A DNA stretch of 60,724 nt, counting the filler, from Dugesia japonica (lineage: Eukaryota): NCBI GenBank assembly GCA_001938525.1. It is 5 parts of 5 records of this genome, joined end to end, with 100 filler letters (N's around TTAATTAATTAA, not from the genome) between each part and the next. Parts side by side here need not be neighbours in the genome. Positions count along the whole stretch, not along the records: positions 1 to 18,516 come from MQRL01566300.1; 4 more parts are not named here. One strand, given 5' to 3'. A program made the translations under genes and the position numbers. Position 1 is the first letter of the stretch. Every line of letters begins with the position of its first letter. Positions 4,224-41,917 of the stretch are shown in pieces. A model generated the notes under the pieces. That model searched no databases. It had not been told where the DNA came from and was given only the letters and a program-made list of their open reading frames with translations.

Positions 4224-5841
4224 CTAAAATCCAAAAAAATAAATATATATTTAAAGGATATATATTTTAAGTTATTAAAAATCAGAAATATATCATTCAC
4301 ATAGTGTAGGAGCAAAAGGTGAACTCAAAGCAACTTCATAAACTTGTTTGTACCATTCATTTTTAAACGAAAGATGTATATAAGACATAACAATTTTGGT
4401 AAGACATTTCCTCGGTATGATTGGTTTCAGATGATTTAGTTGATAATTTCCTCTGTGTGGTCAATTTTTGGATAATTTTAGTAAAAGTTGGCTCAACATA
4501 GTAAATTTTGGTCAAATTTAGGTGATTTTGTCTAAGTTGTCAAGTTTTTAAATTTCAGGAAATTTGAGGGGGAACTCTATTTTGTTTAACTATTTAAAAT
4601 TTTTTAAAAATAATTATAATATTTATGGGAATCTGGATGACGAATTCAAATTTAGAAAATTTTTTGGAAACTTTTTATCGAGATTTTTACATCATTCGAT
4701 GCAGAATTTTAATATTTTAATATTTTGTACTACATAAACACTTAAGTTTAAAATTCCTCGAATGGTTCAAAAGAATTCTGGCAAATGCTTAATACTTCTC
4801 GTGACGATTATTGTGCAATTCTTCTGATTTTATCCATTTTACGAAATTATTTTGGTATTTTATATTTAAAATGAGTTTTTTTCCAATTTCGGGATATTTA
4901 ATTGTTTGTGCGAGATTGTCCCGCGCATTTGCATCAATAACTGTAACTGATAAATCAAGACTTTCCTTATTTTCTTAAAATGCAAAGATTCAAAAATCTT
5001 TTTTTTACTAAATTGTTCGTTATTTCAACAAAGTCTTCATCAGTAACGATTGTTCAATTCATTCTAGACATAAAATCATAAATATAAACCCAATTCAAAT
5101 TAATTCTTATATTAATTAACATAATACATAGATATTCATCTTATTTATACTATTTTTGGAACAAAACAAGCTGACAGTTATTTTAGTAAAATTAAACATT
5201 ACATGAAAGTTATGTGAAGAATTTAAAAAAAAAGAATAATACAAAAAAATGAGACTATTAATTATTAATTAATAGTACTTTTAAAGTTAAATGCGAAAGA
5301 TTTCAACAGAAATAATATTATTAGAATAATCTTATTAGAAATGAGTTTATATTTAGTATTGAAATCTGAATAATTATTTAAGGTTTTCAGAAAATTATGT
5401 ATTTAAGAACTTCATAAACAGATGAGATCGATCTATTAACTAATTATGTTAAAATATATAAAGTACATTACAATATATCAACAAAAAATAACGTTTTCAT
5501 CAATCAATTCTAAATTATCTCCCATTTCCTTTCGAAATCCATGTCCAGCAAAATAAAAAAATATNNNNNNNNNNNNNNNNNNNNNNNNNNNNNNNNNNNN
5601 NNNNNNNNNNNNNNNNNNNNNNTTCTTGTACAGATCTCCAAAGCAAAATACCTAAATATGTTAATTTATAAATAATTAATTAAGAACCATTTAAGTTATA
5701 ATTCTTCATTATATCTTTATTAAATTAATGCTAAATTTATAAATATTTACTATTTGGTAGTAGGTAGATTGGTAAATTCAACCCCTCCCCACTTATCGAT
5801 ATATTGATTTACGTTCTGATTGATTATTGATTTTTGAAGTG

Positions 5842-6620
5842 ATTATTATTGATAGGCTAGTTTATTTTGAGTGCTGTGGGAAGGATAGGAAAGGAGGGTT
5901 TGAATTGATCAATCAAAAAGGTGAAGTCATGCTGAACAATTTATCGTATATTTGTTTTAATTAAGTTTAGTTACAGGGAATTTCAAATTTTTCTTTGTCA
6001 GAAAATTTAAAAAATAACAAAAAAAAATAAATAAAAGAAAAAGGAAAGAAAAGAAAAAAAGGAAAAAAACATAAATAAAATTTTAAATTTCCCGCCAAAT
6101 AAATTCCAGTCTGGCATTTCAAATTTTTCTTTGGCGCGAAATTTAAAATTTTGTTAATTTTTTCCCTGTTTTCTTTTTTTATCCTTTTCCTTTTATTTAT
6201 TTTTTTTCTTTGTCTTTCTTTATATTTTAAATTTTTTTAGGTTTCGATGATGTATTTGAATGGATCTTGTAAATCTGTATAGAATGTTTTTGAATAACTA
6301 TTTACAAAAATGTTGTTGTTAGTTACTGTGACAAGTTATCGGTTTTCAGTTTAAAAGGTCTAGTGTTGGAAGTTTTTGGTATTTTCTATGTGATGGTGCG
6401 TGTGTGTAAGTATATATTTTAAAAATGAAAATCGCGACAGAATGGGTGTCGGTTGATGATTTTTGTGTTTAGATAGTAGATTTTACTTGGCCATCGAAAT
6501 CGATCTATAGGTTGCCAAAAGTAACTATGAGCTAAAATGTTTGTGTGTTGTATGTATGCAGCTTCTGTGTTACAAAAATGAGTTTCAAGTATATTTTTAA
6601 GGTTTTATGAGATTGAACAA
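5842..6620. repeat. Left long inverted repeat
   Basis: For example gaaaatcgcgacagaatgggtgtcggttgatgatttttgtg (~6428-6468) is mirrored by cacaaaaatcatcaaccgacacccattctgtcgcgattttc (~8484-8524). Near identity extends over hundreds of bp. Confidence 0.95.
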
Positions 6621-7086
6621 TTATTAAACATGTTATCCACATATCCCTGAGAATATAAATTTTTAAGTCCAAGTATTACTAGTTTTCCTGTTAAGAACAC
6701 ATTTACACATAAAAGGTCATATTTTACCAGTCTTAGAGCAGGAAATAACTCTGATTCAAACCAACAGTTAACTATTCTTGCTAATTTATACAAATTAATT
6801 GAAGCGCAAATTTTAACGACAATTGTTAATGATTATAATTGTAAATTCTTTATATCACAGGGGTTAAAAGCATATGGTTCAAATGGTTTCTTACAACCCA
6901 TTATTCTACATTTTAATGATCTGAAGAATATAATTGTAAACTTATCATTTTGACTTGGAATTTTGGTTTAACTAAAGGAAAACTCATTTTCTTTGTTACT
7001 TCTTGTGATACTTCACCTGTATAGTTAATATTGATTATCATAATTAATGAATTAATAGGGAACATTGAAGTTTTGAGAGAATTCAT
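6605..7086 (-). pseudogene. Divergent TATA-binding-protein (TBP)-like gene; one frameshift (~6950), one internal stop (~6834)
   Basis: Reconstructed as IININYTGEV..FTIIFFRSLKCRIMGCK..IKNLQL*SLTIVVKICASINLYKLA..WFESELFPALRLVKYDLLCVNVFLTGKLVILGLK. This is colinear with the TBP motifs TALIFSSGKMVCTGAK, FKIQNMV..IRLEGL and YEPELFPGL..LIFVSGKVVLTGAK. Confidence 0.7.
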
Positions 7087-7151
7087 TTAATTGATTAGTT
7101 AAAACAAATATAAACAATGTACTAAATTAAAAAAATTAAAGATAAAACAAG

Positions 7152-7703
7152 ATGGAGGAATTAAGAAACAATGCAGTCTATCGAATTGTTAAACCAACTG
7201 GTAGTGGTCTGACTAAATCTGAGTTTTGTAATATTAAAATGAAAATTATAAATGATTTTGATACGAATTGAAGCAAAAAATTGAGACCAGGTGATGTTAT
7301 TGTTGTTGATGATCTGTATCAAGAGGCAAATAAAGAAAGCGATTTCAATAATTTATTCACAAAGATATCGAGACATCATAATGTTACTGTTATATTTATT
7401 ACTCAAAATCTATTTCATCAAGGAGGTAGTCACAAAACCCGCAATTGAAACGTACAAAATTTGGTTCTATTCAAAAATCATTGAGATCAGACTGTTGTTG
7501 ATTTTCTAGCAAGACAAGCATATCCAAATAACAGACAATTTCTTATTGAATAATTTCAAAATGCAACAAAAAATCCTCATGAATATTTATTTCTCGACTT
7601 TACTCAACAATGTCCAATTGACTATAGAGTGATAACTGATATATTTAGTCCAAATGTTATAACAGTGTATAAACAAATAGGAAATTTTCTTAATATTATA
7701 TAA
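7152..7703 (+). pseudogene. Polinton/Maverick-type (poxvirus A32-like, FtsK/HerA) DNA-packaging ATPase
   Basis: One frame with stops at 7269, 7446, 7482 and 7551. Motifs: Walker A-like KPTGSGLT, Walker B VIVVDDL, FTKISRHHNVTVIFITQNLF, LFKNH*D, LARQAYP and ATKNPHEYLFLDF. Confidence 0.9.
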
Positions 7704-7704
7704 A

Positions 7705-7902
7705 ATGGCAAAGTTTAAGAAAATTGTAGTTGATTCAGTTACTGATTGTGATGTTAAACAACGAAAAAAGTCTTTTGTTAAGAAAAAGACACGTTCGTAT
7801 AAGAAAAAATCCCATAAGAAGCAATTCCGTAAGAAAACATTTGCAAATAAAAAAATGCAATTGAATAAGTTTAAAAACCTTACAAAAAGAAGTGGAAAGT
7901 AA
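7705..7902 (+). CDS. Small Lys/Arg-rich basic protein (possible viral core/DNA-condensing protein)
   Basis: ATG lies 1 nt after the ATPase stop codon. The protein is very basic (KKKTRSYKKKSHKKQFRKK). Function is inferred only. Confidence 0.5.
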   Translation: MAKFKKIVVDSVTDCDVKQRKKSFVKKKTRSYKKKSHKKQFRKKTFANKKMQLNKFKNLTKRSGK

Positions 7903-8331
7903 CTAAAAAATAGAAAATGGATATCATTATAAACAATTCATTGCTATCTGTGCTTTATTGAAATAAAAATGAAATTAGAATTAGATTGTTTCAATTTTTT
8001 ATTTGTAATTTTCCTTGTAATCTTCATTGTCTTTTTTGCATATCTCAATTTTATTCAACATTTCATATTGCCGGAACGAGGTTTTCTTCAAGTCTGTCAT
8101 ATTTTTAACAAAATGAAATATAATTTAAATTTTCTCCTTATATACTTTTGATTTGTGTGTATGTGTTTAAAAAATATTAAAATGTTGTAATAAAAAATGT
8201 TTATTATTGTAAATAGTTTTTTCTTTTTTATAAGTGGTAAATATGTAAAAATATTAATCAATGCAATAAGGATGCAACACAGATGCAACACAGATGCAAC
8301 ACGCAATCACCCAAAATCATATCTATAATAA

Positions 8332-8953
8332 TGTTCAATTTCATAAAACCTTAAAAATATACTTGAAACTCATTTTTGTAACACAGAAGCTGCATGCATA
8401 CAACACACAAACATTTTAGCTCATAGTTACTTTTGGCAACCTATAGATCGATTTCGATGACCAAGTAAAATCTACTATTTAAACACAAAAATCATCAACC
8501 GACACCCATTCTGTCGCGATTTTCATTTTTAAAATATATACTTACACACACGCACCATCACATAGAAAATACCAAAAACTTCCAACACTAGACCTTTTAA
8601 ACTGAAAACCGATAACTTGTCACAGTAACTAACAACAACATTTTTGTAAATAGTTATTCAAAAACATTCTATACAGATTTACAAGATCCATTCAAATACA
8701 TCATCGAAACCTAAAAAAATTTAAAAAATAAAAAAAGACAAAGAATAAAATAAATAACAGAAAAAGAAAAAAGGGAAAAAATAAAATAAAATTGTAAATT
8801 TCGCGCCAAAGAAAAATTTGAAATTTCCCGTAACTAGGCTTAATTAAAACAAATATACGATAGATTGGTCAACATGACCTCACTTTTTTGATTGATCAAT
8901 TCAAACCCTCCTCTTACCCCAGCACTCAAAACAAACTAGTCTATCAATAATAA
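8332..8953. repeat. Right long inverted repeat
   Basis: Reverse complement of 5842-6620, lacking a ~135-bp segment present in the left copy. Confidence 0.95.
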
Positions 8954-9739
8954 TTTATATAAGTAAATATACTTTTTTAAAACAAAAAGATGCGTCATGA
9001 ATTTTCACACAACCTAATATCTGATAATACATCTTTTAATCTGGCATGTATAAATAGAAAACAAGAAAAATGTTAAAAATTATGTACCGTAAATCCTAAT
9101 TGGCGTAAAACACGTTCCAAATCGAATATATCAGTTTCCGGTGCTTTCAATTTTTGATTCTTTCGATAATTCATGATACCAACCAGTAACGCTATACGCT
9201 TCACTCCATCTAAAAAATTTGGACTACATTTTAGTCTAATAATCTAAAGATCACAATTTTAAATTTATAATTTATATATCGAATAATGTAACATTTATAA
9301 AAAAGATGTCTTACATTTTTTATGTGCAGGAATGATTTCTGGTATAAATAATGTCAATTAAAATCTCTGTGGAAAAATAAAGCAGATGGGAAAAATAATT
9401 GGTTGAAAATAAAGATCTAGTGTGTATAAACTTATAGAATGTAATATATAGCACAATAAGAAGTTATTTAAAACAAATTTTGATTAAAAATTTAAAGACG
9501 GTCACTAATCAAAATTTTAAAATGAGTCCTCATATCCTTATATTTAAGAATTTAACTGTATGTTTCTCATTATCACATCATTTTTTGGAGAACGCTGTAA
9601 CAATCAAGTTTAATATTTAAATCATAACGATTAAATTAAAAATTTCATATAAATAAAAGCTGGAAAATTTAGTTATCTTTGAACGAAGTGAAACACCGTG
9701 AAACAAATATAACAAAAAAGTACATTACAAAAAGCACTT

Positions 9740-10640
9740 GCAATCTTCTTCTCAGCTTTGAGGATAATTTTAGAAGATACATCTATGGTTCAGATATATA
9801 GACGATATTTTCTTTGTTACTGATTCTCCTTACGAAAATATTTTAGAACTAGCCAATAGAATTTAATGATAACATCAAATTCACTTTAGAGAAGTCAATC
9901 GACTTTCAGATTCCTTTTCAGGACACCTTAATCCAAAAGAAATCTGGTAAATTAATAATTAACCACTTATATATGAAACAATTTCACAGTGCACATATAT
10001 TACACTGGAGTAGTAATCCTACCATCAGACAAATAATTGGAATAATCAAGGGAGAAAGAATAAGAGCTGAAAGACTATTCAAATGAAGAAATAAGATTAA
10101 CTTCTCTCAAGTTGATAAAAAATAAATTTCTAAATAATGGCTATCCAAATAGAATTGTATCTAAATATCTATCCTCGAATACAAAATTTAATAAAATCAA
10201 ACAAAAGACAAACACTAATGAGTAATGTAGCCAAATCATGCAAAATATAATTAAAAAATCGAAACTAAAACACAATCCAAGAATTATATTTAAAACGCAA
10301 GCACCTTTGGGTATCCTATTACAGAAACCAAGGCAGACTTTTTGTGGTCTCAAATGCATTTGTGATTGTAGAAATATATGCAATAAAAAAAATATCACTT
10401 ACAAAATAACATGCACCTCATGTAAAGATACATATATAGGAGAAACAAGCAGAACCATCCGTACAAAAATGTGAAGTCTTCAAACACTTTTAAAACAAAC
10501 ATAATATTTTAACAGAAAATCATCATATTACAAAAACATTAGGAACAAGCTACATTTCTACACTTAACAGAAAAAAACATGAACAAATATTAATTAAAGA
10601 GGAGAAACCTAAGATTAACGTGATTCTCAATAATTACAAT
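9740..10640 (+). mobile_element. 5'-truncated Penelope-like retroelement (RT + GIY-YIG), decayed
   Basis: RT motifs WFRYIDDIFF (~9786), IKFTLE, IPFQD, LHWSS and FLNNGYP. GIY-YIG region CNKKNITYKITCTSCKDTYIGETSRT (ORF 10238-10474). Confidence 0.9.
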
Positions 10641-13600
10641 AATTAAAAGTTTTCAATAAATAAAATTTTTTTTTAAAGATTCTCAATAATAAAAAAAATT
10701 AATTAAATAAAATTAGTAAAAAATTAAAGTTTTAATATTGTAATATTTTAATCTTAATAAAAAAGATTTTTTGAGATTTTTAGATTATCAATAATTAAAA
10801 TAATTAATAAATTTTAAAAAAAATTAGTAAAAAATTAGAGTTTAAATATTGTAATATTTTAATCTTAATAAAAAACGAATTTTTGAGATTTAATTTTAAA
10901 ATAAAAAATTATACTTTAAATAAACCAATAAAATTTCGATAAAAGAGAAATAATTTTGTAGCAGAGATCTATTGTCCTATTGAATAAATCGAAAAGTCAT
11001 CATTCCTGAACGAAGACAAGTGTCAAAAATTTGAAATTATTTACAAATACATTTAATTTTGATCGAAGCCTTTTCTTTATTTTAATAAAATCTCAAATGC
11101 GATCAATGGTTAAGTCCAACAATTATTCCCGCAATAATTGTAATTATAAAAAAATTATAATCATTATTTAAGTAACAACATTAACCAGAACAAAAAATCC
11201 AGAGGTATCCTAGTATAGAAAGTTCAGAACTGATATCTAAAAGTTTAGAAAATCAATAAGATTCAAATTAAATTAATACAAAACATTGTCCATTCCGAAT
11301 TCATCCCGAAAAGAAAAAATACCGCAATGGAACTAAATTGCTTAATTCACAAAAATAATTTTTTTAAATGAAAAATAAATTAATAAAAATATCCTTTCTT
11401 TTTGCAAAAAAAAGAAAATAATTGAAAATAAACTATTTTGAAAATATGAAAACTACGGTTTAAATAAATACGGAGAATATAGACAGAACTCAAAAAACCT
11501 TCACGAAGTAAATTAAAAAATCAACCAATCTGAATATTCCACAATAATAGACCAATCTGAATTCCTAACGAGCTTAAAAATTCAAGATACCTAAAAAATT
11601 GAAAATGCCAAATTAAAAATTGTATTTTTCAATTTCACACTAATAGAGAAGTTGTAATTCAATAAATTTTGGTGAGTAAAAATATTCAACTGCAAAATAT
11701 TTTCACTTCAGCAAAAGTATTTCGATATAAGAGGTTATTAATGAACAAAATCCCAAGGGGGATTACGAAGAAGAAAATTCAACAAGAACCACAAATATTT
11801 AGAATAATTCTGTAGTAACAACAATGAGGAGGGGCCAACAAAAAGATAAATTACGAATTGATCAAATAGAAGAAATTTAAATATTTGTGACAATCTGCTA
11901 AAAGTACAAAAAAGAATAAATAAATTAATTGAACACAAAGGAGAACATTTTTGGTTCAAAAATTTAAACAAAGAATTTAAATAAAAAGCAACCAACATAG
12001 TAATGCAACTTAAAAGAAATATGAAGCAGATAATTCACGAAAAGATAAGAATTGAAAATTTGAAATATTTTGCTGTTTGTGCTGCCATCATTCTTATGCC
12101 CATTAATGATGAATGATAATGAATATTGCTAAAACATAAATAATGCAAGATATCTGTTCTTACAATATATGTTTTATTACCCAAGATTGTATAAACTTTT
12201 TAATGTCTCATTATAAATAATGCAAGTAAAGATTTGGGATAATGAAGGTTTAAGTCACGAAGTATAGTAAAGTATATTTTAGTAAGCAAAAAAATCTACA
12301 GTCTCTAATTAGAAATGTTGATAATTCAAATTTTTTCAGTATCTCAAATTTTTTAATTAAAATTTTATAAAGTAATTACTATTATAATTTTTTTATGTAT
12401 AGAATTTTTTGAAAAATCGAGTTAATAAAAATAACGTATTTTCATTAATTCGTATTTCTTGACTCCTTTAAAAATATTTTTATGAAAAATGGATCAAGAA
12501 TGCTAATAATTTTATTTTAAGCTTATCCGATGTAAATAATGATATTTATGAATCTATTAAACGGCTAAAAAAATTGTTTATATGAATTAAAGGGTAAGAA
12601 TTATAAGCAGGAAAGAATCAAAGAATATTTTCAATAAATATATTGTGGTTTTTATTCGTTAATTTGAAATTTTTGATAATTCGACATGATTTTCTAATCC
12701 CCAAGAAATACGAATTAAAAAGGTTCGATTGTATTAAATAATGATCTTTAATAACTGTTTGTTAAAAGTTTTTTGCTGCTAAATCTTTTTTTAGCAAATT
12801 TTATTTTGATTTATCATTTTTTTTACACGTGAACTTAAATATATTTTATTTTTCTTGCAAATATCACCATTACAATTCGGACAATAATAATTATACCATA
12901 GTTTTTGTAATGAAAAGTCTAAAGGTGATTGTGTTATGTATTAAATCTGTGTTTATATTTTCCAACAGTTTTGATCGGCTTAACTATCTGATAATTAATT
13001 AATGGTAATATGAATTACTATATTAGTTTATTATTTTGTTCTGTTTATATTCAGGTTAAAAGAGAAAGATATTTGGTAACAAAATAATACATATTGAGAC
13101 TGTGAGTATAGATTCATGAATTTCGGATGTCTGAGATTTTTTAATTTTTATATTTAATATTAAGATGGGTTTTTTTTGAAATTTTTAAAATATAAAATTT
13201 TAAAAATAATAAGGTTGAAAAATAAATAAATATATATGTAAAACAAAGATATTTTAAATAAAAGTTAAAATTTTACATGGTGTTAAATAATAAAATTTTA
13301 AAAAATTATTTTCTAAAATGAGTTTTAAAAATAATTATTTTGGAATTGAAAAAACCAAAAAAAAAATATTTTATTAAGATTTCTCAGATTATTTGTTTGA
13401 AATTTGTGAATTGTTATTTCATATTTTCATTTTTTAAGAAAAGATTTGTAATAATCAATAAACAATTTATGGAGATTTGTGAGACTTTAAATTTAACTAA
13501 TAGAGACATTATCAAAATGCGATACTTTTTAAAAATCTCTGCTACTGAGTATCGTTTGTTTTGCAAAAGTTCTAATATTCATTAGTAACCTTAAAATAGT

Positions 13601-18787: not shown

Positions 18788-20222
18788 TTATTCGGGATTT
18801 TTGGGAAGAAAACTATTAATAGACGATTCTCGTGAATGTTTTGCTTCCAAGGCAAATAGTAAACAAGAAAATATACGATACAGCAGTATAAACGGGGAAA
18901 TAGTAGCAGACAAATCCAGTAGTAATATCCGGATATCAAATCGATAATTTTTCACATTCCGAAATTCATGGTTGAATAAATCACTGATAAAAGTTATTCC
19001 ATTAAATAAACTAAGTATAAGTAATAAATTATGAATTTTTTGATTTCTACTTTCAAATTTATATTGTATATTGATTAATATTAAAATCGATTGGAAAAAT
19101 GTCGCAATGAAAAGTAATCCACTACAAATAAAATCCAGAATCAATGACACCAGATTTTCATCACGAGAATAATAAAATGAACATGTTAAATGTATCATAT
19201 TTACCATTATAAATACAAATTTACTGATAGAACCAATCGATATTAATAAATGTCTCATAATGATTTCATTGTATTTCTTTCTGTGAGTATATTGAACATT
19301 TGTTAGAAATATTATAGAAACATATAATGCAAAAATTATCTGAAAAATATCTACAAACGATTGAATATAATACGGATTTTTGATAAATTTACGAACAGCT
19401 AATAATATAAAATTCGAAATAAATAAAATAACACCAAAAAAATATTTTCTATAAGATTTATCAACTGAATTTTCATTTGTTAAACAATTAAAACGTATTT
19501 CGATTTTTTGATAAATAAAATGAAAATGCGTTTGTAATGGGTTTATAATGTATGGAATCATAGAAATTCCAAGAATTATTATTGCGATTTTAATATTATT
19601 TGAAAGACTCGCATATAAATGAGTAGCCCAAGTAAATTCGGCAGTAATATTAATTGAACATACACTTTTAAAACGATTATCATTGAATTTTCTTTGAAAG
19701 GCCGATTGAAATTCTTTAGTCAAAAAAAGAACAGCATTAAAAGTAGCTAAATTCAACAAAGAAGACAACGAAATGAGTAAAGTTTGTGAATTTATCAAAT
19801 TGATTATTGGTAATTCACCAGTATCATTTGAATTTAAAATATTGACAATAAGAAAAATCATAGATAAAAAAAGTAAAGAAATTGACAAGTTAAATGATAA
19901 ATTAATATAACTATCACACGTGATAATGTAATATGTGAATACAGCTGAAAAAATAAATGAAGGAATGAGAAATGTGATTATCGGAAAACAAATCAAAAAT
20001 ACAACTTTTGGATTTTCTGTTGGATTTTTTTGAAAGAAATTTCGATGATTATAATTGATTTTTGCACTAATAAAAACTAGAATCGTGTTAAAAAGAAATA
20101 TTACCGTTGTCAATGATATAATAATTTGCCAATATCCGATTTCTTCAACGACGTAAGGAACTATTCTCACAGAGTAAATCATATAGTTAAAAACAACTCC
20201 AACACTAATTGAACATAGGAAA
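18788..20222 (-). CDS. Divergent otopetrin-family multi-pass membrane protein (5' end in gap)
   Basis: Uninterrupted ORF of at least 464 aa, open into the N gap, with ~10 hydrophobic segments. Motif order matches otopetrins: LNLATFN, SVD....YFFGVILF, FQSILI, LLILSLFNGI and PFILLYRIFSCLL..E. Confidence 0.6.
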
Positions 20223-27776: not shown

Positions 27777-30700
27777 TTAACAGTCCAATCTGCCCCATAA
27801 AAGATCTAATCTAAAATGCCACGTTTCACATCTAAAACACCAAAATTGATTTCCATGTGGCCAAGTTATAATTCTGTTTATTTCAATCAAAACTTTATCA
27901 TCAACAGCAGTTAATGCAATTTTATCTTGACAATCCAATCTAACTTCATGACACTCTGATTTTAATCTATAATTCTTTCCATAAACTATTTTGTTTGGAT
28001 TTTTTAAAACTTCGTCATACTGCATCATTTTTAATTTGCTGGATAAAGAAATTCCTTTATGCACCGGTTTTAATTATGTTCTTCCACTTGCATATACAAA
28101 TTCTACTCCATAAGTTTTTGACTTTATAAAATCACAATGCAAAATTACACTATTCGGCATTTCGTCTTTCATTTGAAAGAGTTCGGGTCCTAAAAGAGTT
28201 TCCAATTTTTCTAAATTTTTTCGCCCCTTGATTACTACAAATAATGAATCAGTGAATAAGTGAATCAGTGTCTGTGTAGTGAATTTTATAATTTTCCATT
28301 CCAATTGCTGGTGCCATCTTTTCATATACAAAATCATACATTTGTTCTTTCGCATATTCCAATACAGTGAAACCAATAAATGGAAATTTATTATATTTTA
28401 CACAAGTTTGTAACATGTGCATTTAGCATGTATTTTCTGAAAAAGTTTTTGAAGAAACATAAGTTGGTTTAGATACAAACTTTTGAAAGTCTTTGTCAGA
28501 TCCCACCATGTGTAACTTTCTATATTTTCTAGGGTTTTTCCATAAATGCATTATTTGTCATTTTAAATGCATAGTATTTATTTTTATCTTTATTTTTTTT
28601 GCCTCATTTCTTTTCTCTACATTGAAAAGAATATAATCTTTTAACCATGGTCTCATTGGCACTTTATATTTTACATGAATTTTTTTCAACACCATTCCAA
28701 GTTTAATATACAAGTCTAAAGTACTGCCCAGAACAATGTAATTTTTTTATCAAATTGGTTTAGTGTTAATTTTAAGTTATCTTTGGGAAGTTTTTTATTT
28801 AAACATTCTTTTTGGTATGGTGTTAGCATATTCTCTGTGATATTTAACCTTTCAGGTGCTAATGGGAAATATCTCGTTTTCTCGTGTATTTCTGTTGGAT
28901 AATCTAAATCCACTTTATATACAAAATTACACTCTGGTGTCGCTTTTTCATATGTTAGTTCTTTACATTCTGTAAACTCTCCCCATGGAAGTGGTCTTGT
29001 CATGCAAGCTGAATATAAACTGTTTTGATCAATATATTTAATAAATCTTTCCTCGAAAAAATCTTCTGGGATAGTTTCTTCGCGTTCTAATACTTTTATT
29101 AAATAATAATTTTCAACTTGTGTTATTCTTTTAAAGGGATCCTCTTTAGTATAACTGAATACTTGTCTCTCACCGGTTTCGGCAGATACTCCTCCACGAA
29201 TTCCTGCTTCATTCATTAGAAAATAATCAAAGGTTTCAGGTTTTGCATATAATAACTCAACTAATGTAAATTTCATTCCTGCCGTCCATGTAACTCCTGG
29301 TAAAGAATAATTATAACATGGGTCGATTTCATAATTATCCATAGAAGTCTTTCTAAAATCTTCAAAAAAATCTGCAAGAATTATTACATCAAGTTTCATA
29401 TAGTGCAGCATGTATTCCCAGAGATTAGGAAATTTACTAAGATCTTCTAGAAATTGATTATAATCTTCCACAGATATTTCTTGCTGTTTTAATGTGTTGT
29501 AACATTCTACCATTGTTGGTATTATATTACTTTTTAACAATTCCATCGCTACACTCACATTTCTGCCTTTAGTATATTCAAAATGGAAAAACAACTTTTT
29601 TAGGTTTTAAATTAAAAGATTTTAAATGGGGATATACTCCAAGATCTTATAAATTTTCCCCCATTTTTTGAATTGTTATTAATGGGCATAATCTGCATGA
29701 GTCAAGAAATTTTATTTTTTTTAATCTAAAAGAAATATAAACTTCTTCATTGTGAGGAATTATATCTGTAATATTTGATGGGTATTTTTCTAATAATTCT
29801 CTAAAGAAAAGATAATTATCATAACCACCCGCATTATGAAAAAAAAGTGGTACAGAGAAATTTCTCTTTATTTTTTTATATTTTCTATTACAAATTTCAT
29901 GTGCAGGACCAATAAATTTTCCATTGAAAAAGTTGTAAACTTCTTCTGGATTTTCATTTAATTTTTTTTACAGTAATAACATTTATCTTTTAAAATTCTC
30001 GGTTTTTGTTGAATTTGTGTTCTAGATCTTAAATCTAAAATCTCATATAATTTTTTATTTAATAAATTTAAATATCTTATAAATTTTATTATTACATTTT
30101 CACCAAAAAATTTTACATATCCAGTTTTTTTAATTCTTGATGGTGGCTATAAATATAAATTCCCACAGCTAATGGCATTTGTATATTTGTTTCTGAATTG
30201 ATACCCGCCTCAAAATCTGCATAAACTACAAATGGTGCTTTTATCATAAATTCATAATCATCAAATTTATAAGAATCTTTTGTTTCAAATATTATTTCTT
30301 GAGGTTCGAAATAAATACATTGCCTTTGATGTTTTGTAAATAAATTTAAGCTTGTTTAACAATTCATACAATTTAAACATATTTTTTTTCTATTACCATC
30401 AGAAATAAATCCATATACATCTCTGCATAAAATATAATGATTTTTATGAAATAATAAATTACATTTATTTTCTTCAGGTTTTGGATTTGCATCATGATGT
30501 GCAATTTTTATTGCTTGTAATATTTTTNCTCCATTTATAATTTTTAATTCTAAAATATTAATTTTCCATTTATTTAATCTTTCAAACATTTGTACATGTC
30601 GAAGTTTTGTAGGAAATTCTATACCTTTTAAATTTAATTCATCAATGTGTTGTATATAATGACTTTGTCTTGTTTGGTCTGTGTAAATATATCTGTGTGC

Positions 30701-31552
30701 TAAAACAGAATATAGAAAACATCTATTATCATTATTAATTATATTTACTACTCCCTTTTTAATAAATGGTAACTTGATATAAGTCCCTGTGGCCACTACT
30801 GATTTATAACGTTCAAGAGTAAATGTAAAATTTAAAATAAATTCTACACTCTACCCACTTTCTGATTTTGCAACATTAGTTGTATATTTATCTATATCTT
30901 CAATTAATTTTGCTATGGCCGGATCAATTTCTATAAACATTATTATTTTTTTATTATCAGCATAAGATCTAAATTCTCTTTTCACTTCTTTTCCCTCTTC
31001 AGTTTTTGTATATAAAGCTTATGAAGAAAGTCTAGTATTTATTTGTGCTCTTAAATTAAAAAACCTTATTGTTATTTCTTTTAACTCATCATGGTAAGAA
31101 GTCAATACTTTAACTTCCTCGTCAGAAATGTCTTTTGTAGACTCAACTTTACTTTCTTTAAAATATTGTATTTTATAACATTTGTATGAATTAATTCCAA
31201 AAACAGTCATAAGTTCTGCAGTCTCTTGTGCTATTTCTAAATTTGGAAGTGCTCTTTTATGATTTCTACTTGCATAATGTGTTTTTGCTGCACCCTGATT
31301 TGAAAATATTGTATTACAAATTTCGCATGTTAAATTTACATCCTCAGGATTCCAACATACTGATGACATTTTATGTTTTCGATAATGCATTGGTGATCTA
31401 AAAATTGTATGACACTTTGGACATGAGGTTGGATTATAAACATGCATATTTTTTATATGCGTTTTCAGTGCTCCTTTTCTTTTTAATATTTTACTACAGT
31501 GTGGACATGTGAATCTTTCTACTACCATTTTATAAAGATAAACTTTAATCAT
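27777..31552 (-). pseudogene. Polinton/adintovirus-type protein-primed family B DNA polymerase with N-terminal C2H2 zinc fingers
   Basis: Colinear motifs: YIKLP..VVNI.NNDNRCFLYSVLA, APFVVYADFE, GPAHEICN, FHNAGGYD, DVIILADFFEDFR, GIRGGVS, YIDQNSLY..M..PLPWG, FPLAPE, KMTNNAF, MKDE, KGI and DDK. Several stops and frameshifts. Confidence 0.92.
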
Positions 31553-31609
31553 ATTTATAAAATAATGGTGGTAATATTTTTTCCTAGAATGAGAGGATCC
31601 TCTTTAAGA

Positions 31610-32399: not shown

Positions 32400-33740
32400 T
32401 ACGTCCAAAAAGGAGAATGCCATAAGACTATGGAGAAATATTATGGTGAAAAATTCTCTGGGACAAAGTATTAAATATGCCTACATGCAAAACATTAGAT
32501 GTAAGTGCATATGCAAGTTTTTATAAGGAGCATGCAGACCACGTTAAGAAATTTGAAACAACTAAAAATGAGTATTATTAAGGGATATGCTTTTAGAAAC
32601 CAATACAGAAGCTTCTTCAACTTAGAGAGCAAGACAAGAACCATCAGTAATTGATGAATCAATAGTTAATATTGTGGGAAATGTTGAAAATAATGCTATA
32701 GTAGAAATGGATGATAAAGAAAATATAGTTTTTAAGAATTATTTGGATGAAAACGGATGGAATTTTGATGAAATAGATGAAGATGATAAAATTTTCAAAA
32801 AATAATTTAAAGAAGAGGAAGAGTTTTAAACCAAGTCAGTGGATTATAAGATGAACCTACTATTGAAACGGCTTTGTATAGGTGTCATTAGATACTTAAG
32901 TTAGATGTATCTCATCATAATAGTAGGGAAATAGTATTGATAGGAAAATTGTTTAAAATAATTAAAGAATTAAAGGAAGTAAAAATTCAATTTTGAATCA
33001 GTGTAGAATGTATTAAAGGTGTGGATATTAAAACCGGCATGATATCAAATCGAGCTGACCCTCTTAGCGATACATTTTTCAAGGAAGGTATAAGAAATTT
33101 AAATGAGAAGATTGTAGTAAGGTAGTAGTTGGATTCTTAGCCGTATTTTAAAAATTAACTTTAAAATTACAAAAGTTAGTGAAATAAGTAGACTTTCTGA
33201 AAGGAGCCATATTTCTACTTCTAAAAATTTAGAAAAGAAGAAAGTCATAGTTAATGTACAAAATAGTGATTATTTATGCTTTATTTATAGCATTCTTGCA
33301 GTTATTAAGAAAGATGAAATTAGAGAAAACCGACATCGAGTCGCAAAATATAAAAATTATATGACATAGTTAGTATTTGATAAGTTAGACATACCCATGA
33401 AACTGATAAATATCCCAAAATTTGAGAAGCAAAATCCAAGATATGCCATCAATATCTTCTGTACAACCAGTTCGTGACCATTATCATTTTACCGGGAAAT
33501 ATATGGGTCCAGCATGTAGTATGTGTAATATAAGCAGAGAAATAAGATATGAATTACCTGTTGTATTCCACAATCTGAAAGGATATAATCTAAATCATAT
33601 TCTCAAGTATGATCTCAATCAATTCTCAGAATGGAATATCTCATGTATTCCCATAACTGAGAAATTCTTATGTCTTACTGCGATTGAATCGAAAACAACA
33701 ATAAAATTTATTGACTCGTACCAGTTTATAAAAATTATTA
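32400..33740 (+). pseudogene. Second Polinton-type pPolB, N-terminal remnant
   Basis: GSSWILSRI, KKVIVNVQNSDYLCFIYSILA and VRDHYHFTGKYMGPACSMCN..LPVVFHNLKGY..IKFIDSYQF (endonuclease VII-like insert plus exonuclease). Confidence 0.85.
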
Positions 33741-33781
33741 TAAATTTAATTATAATTATAATTATTATAATTATAATAGAC

Positions 33782-34408
33782 AGCCACTGATTGTTACGAT
33801 GTGGATTGAAAAATGAGATCCATTTTTCATCAACTGTCACGATATTGTTCAAGAATTTACAACGCTGGCCACGCTTCAAATGAAGGCGTGCAATCCAAAC
33901 TCTGATTTTCCTTTGTGAGTCGGTCAAAAAATGAGGGACTCAATTACCTTTGTGCCAACGCTTGCCCGCTGACTTCAAAATTTTTGCAATTTCCATGTGA
34001 CTGCATTTGAAAGTATTGCCCAAGTTACGGGTTGTCAACGTTGGATCCAAATCAATAGCTTCAATCACAGTCTCTCGATCAACTACAGATGGGCGTTCGA
34101 ATCTTGGGTTATCATTCAAATCGGTTTTGCCATGCCGAAATTTTTAAACCAATAGTATGCTGTTCTCTTAGACACAATTTGTTGACCTTTGGCCCTGTTG
34201 ATATTTGCAGCAGCCGTTTCAGCACTATTTTTNNNNNNNNNNNNNNTATAATAACAAGTTCCTAATAATCTCTCTTGAAAAAGCCATATTGTACCGGATA
34301 AATTCACGTGATAAACTAAAATATATATTATAATATATTTACAAATATATAAATAGAATATATTAAATATTTCTTGTCTTACTGCAAAAACTTAGTTTAC
34401 AACCTAAT
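33782..34408 (-). mobile_element. Mariner transposon 5' half
   Basis: Reads SKRTAYYWFKNF..RPS..VPHFLT..FLNNIVTVDEKWISFFN. TIR tattaggttgtaaactaagtt at ~34385-34408. Confidence 0.88.
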
Positions 34409-38518: not shown

Positions 38519-41691
<3,173 letters not shown>

Positions 41692-41917
41692 NNNNNNNNN
41701 NNNNNNNNNNNNNNNNNNNNNNNNNNNNNNNNNNNTTAATTAATTAANNNNNNNNNNNNNNNNNNNNNNNNNNNNNNNNNNNNNNNNNNNNTATTATTAA
41801 AACCTAAACTAATAATACCTAAACTAGTTGGTTCAATTTTGTTTCACGATAATATTATTTAATTATTTAATAATTATTTAAGAATTATTAAGAATTATTT
41901 AATAATGAAAACCTACT

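What the first reader, a model, noticed from the sequence alone, without database searches (positions are those of the whole stretch)
5759..8953. Compact long-TIR element combining a TBP-like gene, a Polinton packaging ATPase and a basic protein
Seen: 620-780 bp inverted repeats enclose a tightly packed cassette. The TBP-like gene (-) and the A32-like ATPase (+) are head-to-head with a 65-bp spacer, a basic ORF starts 1 nt after the ATPase stop, and the TBP-like stop falls inside the repeat. Known: Polintons are usually 15-20 kb and carry pPolB, integrase, protease and capsids, none of which is present here. Inference: this is a satellite or genome segment of a polinton-like virus carrying its own basal transcription factor, or a deletion derivative of an unusual Polinton lineage.
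Basis: partly seen in the sequence, partly recalled or inferred. Interest (0 to 1): 0.88.

Follow-up and report, generated by a model that had tools for sequence, protein, structure and literature searches.

The report
Deleted Polinton carrying its own TBP
This is a broken 3.2-kb remnant, likely left by internal deletion, of a virus-like Polinton transposon whose lineage carries its own shortened TATA-binding protein, and that protein likely switches on the packaging and capsid genes through a TATAAAC box found about 35 bases before them.

Summary
Inverted arms (5842-6626 / 8326-8954) enclose a TBP-like gene head-to-head with a Polinton packaging ATPase and a basic ORF. All three genes are broken, the right end lacks its outer 83 bp and no target-site duplication is found, so this copy is dead. 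Intact relatives of the TBP-like gene lie in ordinary Polintons (38 metagenome loci; 9 also show integrase, capsid, protease or pPolB), where ATPase and the same basic ORF are followed by the rest of the virion cassette. The window keeps that order up to the next gene's promoter box and then loses similarity: most likely a deletion derivative, not a satellite. Whether the compact form itself spread is untested. The lasting interest is the lineage: a 150-aa two-lobed TBP under purifying selection, with a remodelled first lobe, and a TATAAAC box 28-55 nt before gene starts in 59 of 107 cases (background 4%), never before the TBP or integrase genes. The window has three such boxes, each before a plus-strand start. 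No paper searched describes this; earlier notes of this scan already do. Binding is inferred, and no TBP-less Polinton control was available.

The parts
5759..6626 (.). Left terminal repeat; begins AGTAGG (Polinton-like AG start, recalled); 5842-6626 is mirrored on the right, 5759-5841 is not
   Evidence: contig of run X3 matches 5657-6404
5980..6115 (.). 136-bp segment present only in the left arm, between two short direct repeats
6088..6099 (+). E2F-site-like palindrome TTTCCCGCCAAA (label recalled)
6130..6141 (-). E2F-site-like TTTCGCGCCAAA (label recalled)
   Evidence: 5 matches (3 places) in the window against a shuffle mean of 0.29
6605..7041 (-). Broken short TBP-like gene (frameshift near 6946-6985, internal stop at 6833-6835); frame ends inside the left arm
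7109..7115 (+). TATAAAC box 43 nt before the ATPase ATG, in the divergent spacer
7152..7703 (+). Broken Polinton packaging ATPase (33 codons missing near 7205, four internal stops)
7668..7674 (+). TATAAAC box 37 nt before the basic ORF, overlapping the end of the ATPase as in relatives
7705..7932 (+). Small Lys/Arg-rich ORF conserved after the ATPase in relatives; interrupted by a stop at 7900-7902
7928..7934 (+). TATAAAC box 41 nt before ATG 7969; in relatives this box leads the PW/cupiennin-like gene
7969..8151 (+). 60-codon hydrophobic ORF starting MK like the PW genes but not similar to them further on; likely spans the deletion junction
8271..8302 (.). 11-bp tandem repeat just inside the right arm; the same junction is seen in diverged RNA reads
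8326..8954 (.). Right terminal repeat, lacking the outer 83 bp
8799..8810 (+). Mirror copy of the E2F-site-like TTTCGCGCCAAA

Best explanation
This is a broken remnant, likely made by internal deletion, of a Polinton-type virus-like transposon whose lineage encodes a shortened TATA-binding protein that likely turns on the element's packaging and capsid genes through a TATAAAC box. Shown: the arms, the three broken genes, intact relatives inside full Polintons, the TBP fold of the relatives' model, and the box at a fixed distance before virion-module genes but not before TBP or integrase. Inferred mechanism of the intact parent: genes without the box (TBP, integrase, the C2 neighbour) are read first by host factors, possibly helped by the E2F-like sites in the arms; the element's TBP, whose first lobe is remodelled, then binds TATAAAC (a word that is enriched here while TATAAAA is not), recruits host TFIIB and RNA polymerase II through its conserved second-lobe stirrup, and drives the late genes. 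Inferred history of this copy: a deletion starting just after the promoter and start codon of the gene that follows the basic ORF removed integrase, capsids, protease and pPolB; the copy then decayed in place and lost its right tip.
For: Parent: 38 metagenome loci hold the TBP-like gene; 13 of 38 also hold the ATPase and 9 of 38 integrase, capsid, protease or pPolB (Pfam rve and Peptidase_C5; double jelly-roll capsid by fold, E 1e-13). 17 of 120 TBP-like database proteins share source and exact longest-contig length with one of 120 ATPases, five of them 10-20 kb, against 1.4 by chance. The window ATPase falls in a 91-row clade (SH-aLRT 99, quick tree) with 12 of the 13 TBP-locus ATPases. The same basic ORF follows the ATPase in 8 of 13 loci (4 end at the contig edge, 1 lacks it). 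TBP: model pLDDT 93, Z 12.8 over 146 residues to human TBP, dN/dS 0.13-0.35 in 10 of 11 pairs; first-lobe V.T replaced by R.M in 110 of 114 members. Box: TATAAAC and ATAAACA are the top 2 of 5198 seven-mers; 59 of 107 lie 28-55 nt before an ORF start against 4.1% background, TATAAAA 6 of 145; ATPase 12 of 13, PW 8 of 9, TBP 0 of 38, integrase 0 of 8; distance to the next ATG SD 7.9 against 35.7 to the previous stop. The window's three boxes all precede plus-strand starts. Many other internal deletions of the family appear as joints in the contigs.
Against: No host assembly, so no full-length copy with these very arms was seen; none of 8 relatives scanned had long inverted repeats. The bare head-to-head pair is not found in the relatives: 2 of 13 are divergent, both with genes between; 10 are tandem and 1 has the ATPase far upstream. 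Summed depth never falls to flank level between the basic ORF and the right arm (200-410 at 8080-8170 against 26-46), which would also fit several copies sharing the compact form. The inner 381 bp of the arms are 99% identical while the outer parts are about 90%, not what plain decay gives. No TBP-less Polinton could be fetched as a control. The box is incomplete over late genes (major capsid 2 of 4, minor capsid 1 of 5, protease 0 of 3 within 60 nt), 23 of 69 boxes near a stop sit at -5 or 0 from it, and 19 of 99 have a stop but no start nearby. One related ATPase fragment has TATAAAA instead (L039). Similarity of ORF 7969 to PW is only the first residues.
Confidence: 0.66

Rival explanations
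1. The compact arm-TBP-ATPase-basic-arm unit is a non-autonomous family: one deletion product was replicated and integrated in trans by full Polintons, and this is one decayed member.
For: Every one of 30 bins has depth in all three contig runs; the lowest core bin (8080-8170, 200-410) is like the terminal bin (5714-5804, 280-360) and about ten times the flank; variant contigs cover 8111-8113. Inner arms are 99% identical although the genes are badly decayed. The nearest intact TBP and ATPase (P0010, P0014) share a longest-contig length of 3793.
Against: Summed depth is not a copy number and no listed contig bridges the core-to-right-arm region. Gene bins are 100-1000 times deeper than 7989-8170, so most family members do not share that stretch at 85% identity. 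No TSD and no right tip. The 3793-base contig could not be read.
Confidence: 0.2
2. The unit is, or descends from, a satellite or genome segment that supplies TBP and the packaging ATPase in trans to a helper Polinton or multipartite virus.
For: Tight packing, both arms present, a self-contained regulatory pair (TBP plus a gene with its box); the divergent spacer itself is very deeply covered (about 2e4), so head-to-head packing is a family trait in this host.
Against: All genes are broken; relatives carry the same genes inside full elements; the promoter box and start of the next cassette gene are still there; no free linear form could be tested.
Confidence: 0.08
3. The TATAAAC box is read by host TBP (or is partly a by-product of overlapping stop codons and Y-K-Q codons), and the element's TBP is a decoy that sequesters TFIIB or other host factors.
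For: The box often overlaps a TAA stop or the YKQ codons that end the ATPase; host TBP can bind a C variant of the adenovirus major late TATA box (PDB 1qn3 title); the first lobe has lost 23 residues.
Against: Canonical TATAAAA is at background before starts (6 of 145) while TATAAAC is at 59 of 107; 11 boxes have a start but no stop nearby, as has window box 7109; family-invariant changes fall on the concave strands and are conserved.
Confidence: 0.25
4. The inverted repeat is an assembly artefact of a high-copy repeat.
For: Gapped short-read style scaffold (37 N runs, one 137 bp left of the element); inner arms nearly identical; many window bases are not seen in the laid contigs (table 3) and the best runs hold only about half of the sampled words.
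Against: Arms differ by substitutions and indels; opposite-strand joints at the right inner boundary occur in three runs of three studies; in X1 and X2 a contig starts where the arms become identical and has about twice the depth of neighbouring single variants; diverged RNA reads show the same junction.
Confidence: 0.05

Closest known systems
Polintons/Mavericks, adintoviruses (Starrett et al. 2021, PMC8502044; Arkhipova and Yushenova review PMC6431247)
   Same: Long terminal inverted repeats, A32/FtsK packaging ATPase; relatives have rve integrase, double jelly-roll capsid, adenain-type protease, pPolB and a cupiennin-like gene.
   Different: This copy has 3.2 kb instead of 15-25 kb and no integrase, pPolB, capsid or protease. 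The lineage has a TBP gene; in PMC8502044 TBP appears only as a label in the legend of Fig. 5 and not in the machine-read text of the adintovirus maps of Suppl. Fig. S2; which virus carries it could not be seen.
Cellular and archaeal TBP (Pfam PF00352; PDB 1cdw, 1mp9, 2z8u)
   Same: Two-lobed saddle over the whole length (Z 12.6-13.0, rmsd 2.6-2.8); second lobe keeps YEPELFP and F..GK.
   Different: About 150 aa; first lobe is 10 residues shorter before its last strands and 13 shorter in the following helix, lacks the first stirrup motif, and has R.M for V.T; second lobe has C-V-N for V-L-L.
Viral TBP-like late-gene factors: herpesvirus BcRF1/ORF24/UL87 (TATT box, recalled), poxvirus and giant-virus TBP-like factors, mirusvirus TBP (PMC10132985)
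   Same: A virus-borne TBP fold; BcRF1, elephant herpesvirus U58 and many giant-virus TBPs are among the fold matches. Works like these if the box is its target (inferred).
   Different: Those are large viruses, and the herpesvirus factors are much longer multi-domain proteins; here a 150-aa protein sits in a 15-20 kb integrating element without its own RNA polymerase. Identity to them is 7-18%: no membership claimed.
Non-autonomous internally deleted DNA transposons
   Same: Ends kept, coding middle lost.
   Different: Spread of this deleted form is not shown; one tip and the TSD are missing. PMC3014272 notes an apparent absence of non-autonomous Polintons in the anole (passage read).

Membership tests
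Polinton/Maverick (this copy) | Long terminal inverted repeats | tested here: met
   785/629-bp arms; right tip missing
Polinton/Maverick (this copy) | 6-bp target-site duplication | tested here: inconclusive
   None for 12 candidate left ends, but the right terminus is lost, so none is expected
Polinton/Maverick (this copy) | pPolB and rve integrase between the repeats | tested here: not met
   No match of the relatives' pPolB, integrase, capsid or protease profiles inside 5759-8954; hence a remnant, not an autonomous member
Polinton/Maverick (this copy) | Polinton-type packaging ATPase | tested here: met
   65% identity, E 3e-79, to intact A32-type ATPases; same clade as ATPases of full elements; broken here
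Polinton/Maverick (parent lineage, loci L003, L011, L031, L032) | Integrase, pPolB, major capsid, protease in one element | tested here: met
   rve in L003, L011, L032; Peptidase_C5 in L032; L032 capsid folds as double jelly-roll; the L003/L011 polymerase has only an Endonuclease_7 Pfam hit but aligns with the window relic that hits DNA_pol_B_2
Polinton/Maverick (parent lineage) | Complete element bounded by TIRs and TSD | tested here: inconclusive
   No long inverted repeat in the 8 of 38 loci scanned; contigs are partial, at most 12.8 kb held
Adintovirus Alpha/Beta class | PolB class and OTU domain; cupiennin/GasderminX module | not tested
   A cupiennin-like C-terminus is seen by eye in cluster C6 (label taken from PMC8502044); PolB class was not placed in a tree
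TBP fold (PF00352) | Two-repeat saddle | tested here: met
   Pfam above cut-off; model aligns over residues 1-150 to solved TBPs, Z 12.8
TBP fold (PF00352) | Second-repeat acidic stirrup (TFIIB contact, role recalled) | tested here: met
   P97, E98, F100 invariant and E96, L99 nearly invariant in 35 sequences
TBP fold (PF00352) | Binds a TATA-type box and supports initiation | not testable with these tools
   Only the positional correlation with TATAAAC
Non-autonomous Polinton family | Several insertions sharing one deletion junction, each with own TSD | tested here: inconclusive
   Contigs are too short to bridge the junction; depth allows one or several copies
Satellite or genome segment | Intact genes | tested here: not met
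   All three ORFs broken
Satellite or genome segment | Free linear or encapsidated form | not testable with these tools
   Only contigs for the DNA runs; no ends can be read

The most novel reading that the evidence does not exclude
The 3.2-kb arm-TBP-ATPase-basic-arm unit is a fossil of a replicating mini-Polinton: a helper-dependent satellite or segment that spread in this host and supplied an altered-specificity TBP in trans, switching on TATAAAC-led virion genes of full-length Polintons.
Probability: 0.1. Interest if true: 0.87.

Novelty: new variant of a known kind. Interest (0 to 1): 0.6.

Why it matters
How Polintons, the likely ancestors of many eukaryotic DNA viruses, order early and late gene expression is essentially undescribed in the papers searched. 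A minimal TBP paired with a private seven-base box gives a direct, simple test (binding, start-site mapping, reporter) and would put a herpesvirus/poxvirus-like late switch into a 15-20 kb integrating element. It would also be a natural altered-specificity TBP, useful for understanding how TBP reads its box. The box is a practical marker for finding gene starts in these elements. The compact copy itself matters less: it is dead, and the lineage feature has already been noted several times in this scan.

Tried and rejected
No whole genome is held, so the arm could not be searched against the assembly. IMG/VR scans with TBP, two ATPase and one capsid alignments found nothing; a motif-plus-start pattern gave 13 loci, none matching any of 11 Polinton profiles. 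GTDB: nothing for TBP, one rearranged ATPase fragment (L039). Phage collection: no match. So no TBP-less Polinton control was obtained; a search for motif words in the nematode Polinton supplement gave 0 hits, also for TATAAAA, so it holds no usable DNA text. Cluster look-ups gave no accessions, so shared contigs are inferred from lengths only. No RNA holder listed in the run index. No coding remnant found in the arms or in 7700-8330 beyond the basic ORF (best blastp E 0.03-0.04). The capsid had no sequence match in PDB and needed a fold search on a modest model (pLDDT 63). The careful ATPase tree did not finish; the quick tree has no starred set around the window row. E2F-like sites were not found as a shared feature of the 38 loci, whose ends are mostly missing. 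No complex prediction was sent: TBP-TFIIB needs DNA and only a stand-in partner was available. Two recalled papers (TBP on variant boxes; EBV BcRF1) are not held. The two pPolB relics at 28-34 kb were considered as the missing middle and rejected: 19 kb away, no arm sequence near them.
Full report
1. Observation. The arms are real sequence: 6116-6626 pairs with 8326-8824 (512 bp, 94.9%) and 5842-6012 with 8792-8954 (84.8%), and the element matches nothing else in the window at E 1e-5. The left arm has a 136-bp extra segment and runs on for 83 bp to an AGTAGG start at 5759 that has no partner; none of 12 candidate left ends gave a 6-bp duplication on the right. The minus-strand gene matches Pfam TBP above the cut-off (E 2.2e-6) and eight intact 149-153 aa proteins at 54-67%. 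The plus-strand gene matches 194 proteins, the best at 65%, with Pox_A32 on most. The basic ORF starts 1 nt after the ATPase stop. The finding omits that all three genes are broken: TBP by a frameshift near 6946-6985 and a stop, the ATPase by a 33-codon gap through the end of Walker A and four stops, the basic ORF by a stop nine codons before the family-type end. The TBP start shared with relatives is 7041, so the spacer is 110 bp, not 65.

2. Assembly and copy status. No host assembly is held. Ten listed runs of one organism hold part of the stretch, five of them half of its words or more. I laid four of the 24 listed runs on 5623-8325, which holds one arm. A 748-base contig of X3 matches 5657-6404 without other letters. 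Contigs of X1, X2 and X3 join 8316-8322 to 6596-6600 on the opposite strand, which is the right inner boundary, and diverged RNA reads show the same junction. In X1 and X2 a contig begins at 6232-6233, where the arms become identical, with depth 25.6 against 7-17 for neighbouring variants. A misassembly is therefore unlikely, though the window's own bases are missing from the contigs at many places. About 9000 contigs per run were laid, most at 90-95% identity; summed depth is 1e5-3e5 over both genes, about 2e4 over the spacer, 200-410 at 8080-8170 and 26-46 at the flank. The tool warns that this is no copy number; it shows a very large, diverged family, with many different internal skips (15 joints shown, 213 not shown). 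No listed contig bridges the basic ORF to the right arm, so whether the compact form occurs once or many times is open. In one poly(A) run (a quarter read) 756 reads lay here, 2 of them at 99% or more.

3. The parent lineage. The TBP alignment found 38 metagenome loci. Most contigs are short; 13 of 38 also hold the ATPase, 9 of 38 integrase, capsid, protease or polymerase, and 24 show no core gene. L003, L011, L031 and L032 read ATPase, PW/cupiennin-like, integrase, minor-capsid-like, small core-like gene, major capsid; L003 and L011 end in a polymerase and L032 has the protease. The labels PW, minor capsid and small core gene are by position and recall; integrase and protease are Pfam hits; the major capsid was confirmed by fold (Sputnik, iridovirus and PBCV-1 capsids, E 1e-13) and by the Atlas (DJR-like, 0.97). 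In the protein database 17 of 120 TBP-like proteins share source and exact longest-contig length with one of 120 ATPases (shifted control mean 1.4, maximum 5), five of them at 10-20 kb. The window ATPase lies in a 91-row clade with 12 of the 13 TBP-locus ATPases (quick tree). The basic ORF is a lineage gene: an M..FKK...KW..L type ORF follows the ATPase by 9-24 nt in 8 of 13 loci, 4 end at the contig edge and L032 lacks it. TBP and ATPase are tandem in 10 loci, divergent with genes between in 2, and far apart in 1, so the bare head-to-head pair is this host family's arrangement.

4. The TBP-like protein. A profile finds 541 proteins at E 1e-10 or better and 186 clusters at 50% identity (some are cellular TBPs). 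The model of an intact relative has pLDDT 93 and aligns over residues 1-150 to human, yeast and archaeal TBP (Z 12.6-13.0, rmsd about 2.7). Against a canonical eukaryotic TBP, the second lobe keeps its spacing and YEPELFP, while the first lobe is 10 residues shorter, lacks the first stirrup motif and is 13 residues shorter in the next helix. The strand F..G..V.TG reads R.M in 110 of 114 members and the second-lobe V-L-L reads C-V-N in 109 of 114. From recall, these strands line the DNA-binding face, the first lobe reads the 3' half of the box, two of these positions are those of the altered-specificity yeast TBP mutants, and the stirrup binds TFIIB. dN/dS is 0.13-0.35 in 10 of 11 pairs (1.1 in the closest pair).

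5. The promoter box. Looking upstream of the ATPases showed TATAAAC in 12 of 13. It also precedes PW 8 of 9, C7 5 of 5, C11 5 of 5, major capsid 2 of 4, minor capsid 1 of 5, protease 0 of 3, and never TBP (0 of 38), integrase (0 of 8), C2 (0 of 20) or C4 (0 of 9). Without annotation, TATAAAC and ATAAACA rank first of 5198 seven-mers; 59 of 107 occurrences lie 28-55 nt before an ORF start against 4.1% background, while TATAAAA gives 6 of 145; after dropping 10 near-duplicate loci it is 50 of 91 (the loci remain related, so the P values are too small). The box is tied to the next ATG (46 of 61 at 32-39 nt, SD 7.9) more than to the previous stop (SD 35.7), but 23 of 69 sit at -5 or 0 from a stop and 19 of 99 have a stop and no start. 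The window element has exactly three boxes, all on the plus strand: 43 nt before the ATPase, 37 before the basic ORF, and 41 before ATG 7969. The third overlaps the natural end of the basic ORF, as the PW box does in relatives; the ORF behind it starts MK like PW and then shows no similarity. I read this as the deletion junction. One related ATPase fragment, L039, has TATAAAA. No TBP-less Polinton could be fetched as a control.

6. Mechanism and history. Shown: anatomy, lesions, parent gene content, fold, selection, box position. Inferred: box-less genes are early; the element's TBP binds TATAAAC and recruits host TFIIB and polymerase II for late genes, working like the herpesvirus TATT factors (recalled) without being a member of that family; this copy lost its middle by deletion and decayed. 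Rivals: a mobilised non-autonomous family (0.2), a satellite or segment (0.08), a host-read box with a decoy TBP (0.25, concerns the mechanism only), misassembly (0.05). The inward rise of arm identity to 99% is unexplained.

7. What is known. Ten full-text searches: polinton with TATA-binding protein 5 papers, with TBP 6, with TATA-box 4, with TATA binding 2; adintovirus with TBP 2; none of the 30 listed of 251 holds TATAAAC. By listing and abstract start none describes a Polinton TBP. [quoted passage not shown] Term searches of the main text gave no TBP or TATA in PMC11161782, 10.64898/2026.10.13.758929, 10.64898/2026.06.19.733378, PMC11131425, 10.1101/2023.08.22.554363 and 10.1101/2025.02.07.637071. 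Passages only were read of PMC6431247 (Polinton size and genes), PMC3014272 (6-bp TSD), PMC10132985 (mirusvirus TBP) and PMC8532177 (no TBP); of PMC10748475 only a supplement term search. Subscription papers, Repbase annotations, figures, slide files and preprint supplements were not seen and may already name this gene. Earlier AI notes of this scan (seen after my) report the same short TBP and box in other genomes, one with the head-to-head ATPase, and some a TBP-TFIIB pair; they are leads, not support, but they mean the lineage feature is not new to the scan.

8. Verdict. Observation confirmed with corrections; interpretation partly supported. A dead, most likely internally deleted copy of an abundant TBP-carrying Polinton family; new variant of a known kind. 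Interest 0.6, carried by the TBP and its candidate box, not by the compact form.

Noticed in passing
window 6088-6141 and 8799-8810: Adjacent G+C-rich palindromes in the arms match E2F-type sites (label recalled from the DHFR and adenovirus E2 promoters); two such 12-mers in the left arm arose in 0 of 5000 resamples. Would suggest S-phase-linked early transcription.
   Followed up: partly
window 5842-6626 vs 8326-8954: Identity between the arms falls outward: 377 of 381 inner columns, about 92% in the middle, about 90% outside. Unexplained; in-place gene conversion is my guess.
   Followed up: partly
window 28231-31603 (-) and 32967-33790 (+): Two divergent pPolB relics head to head around 14- and 36-bp tandem repeats, with a C2H2 zinc-finger ORF; the plus-strand one is 53-55% identical over about 92 aa to the polymerase of TBP-carrying loci L003 and L011.
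   Followed up: partly
window 5623-8325, runs X1, X2, X3: About 9000 contigs per run lie on this stretch at 85% identity or more, with summed depth 1e5-3e5 over both genes against 26-46 at the flank: the TBP-Polinton family is extremely abundant in this host.
   Followed up: partly
window 5623-8325, run X12: 756 poly(A) RNA reads laid, only 2 at 99% or more; they fall on both genes and both strands, so related copies are transcribed at a low level, not this one.
   Followed up: partly
L003:1788-2138 and 19 more ORFs (cluster C2): A roughly 110-aa gene without Pfam match sits next to TBP in 19 of 38 loci and never has the TATAAAC box; a candidate early partner of the TBP.
   Followed up: no
L011:5616-7687: Two tandem copies of the minor-capsid-like gene in one element.
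   Followed up: no
window 38647-41743 (+): Exons of a host Sir2-family gene.
   Followed up: no
window 18788-20221 (-): Long multi-membrane-spanning ORF without Pfam match; looks otopetrin-like by recall.
   Followed up: no
window 9853-10646, 23.3-26.9 kb, 47.8-50.2 kb: Penelope/GIY-YIG-like relic (motif recalled) and LTR-retrotransposon relics with RT and integrase matches.
   Followed up: no
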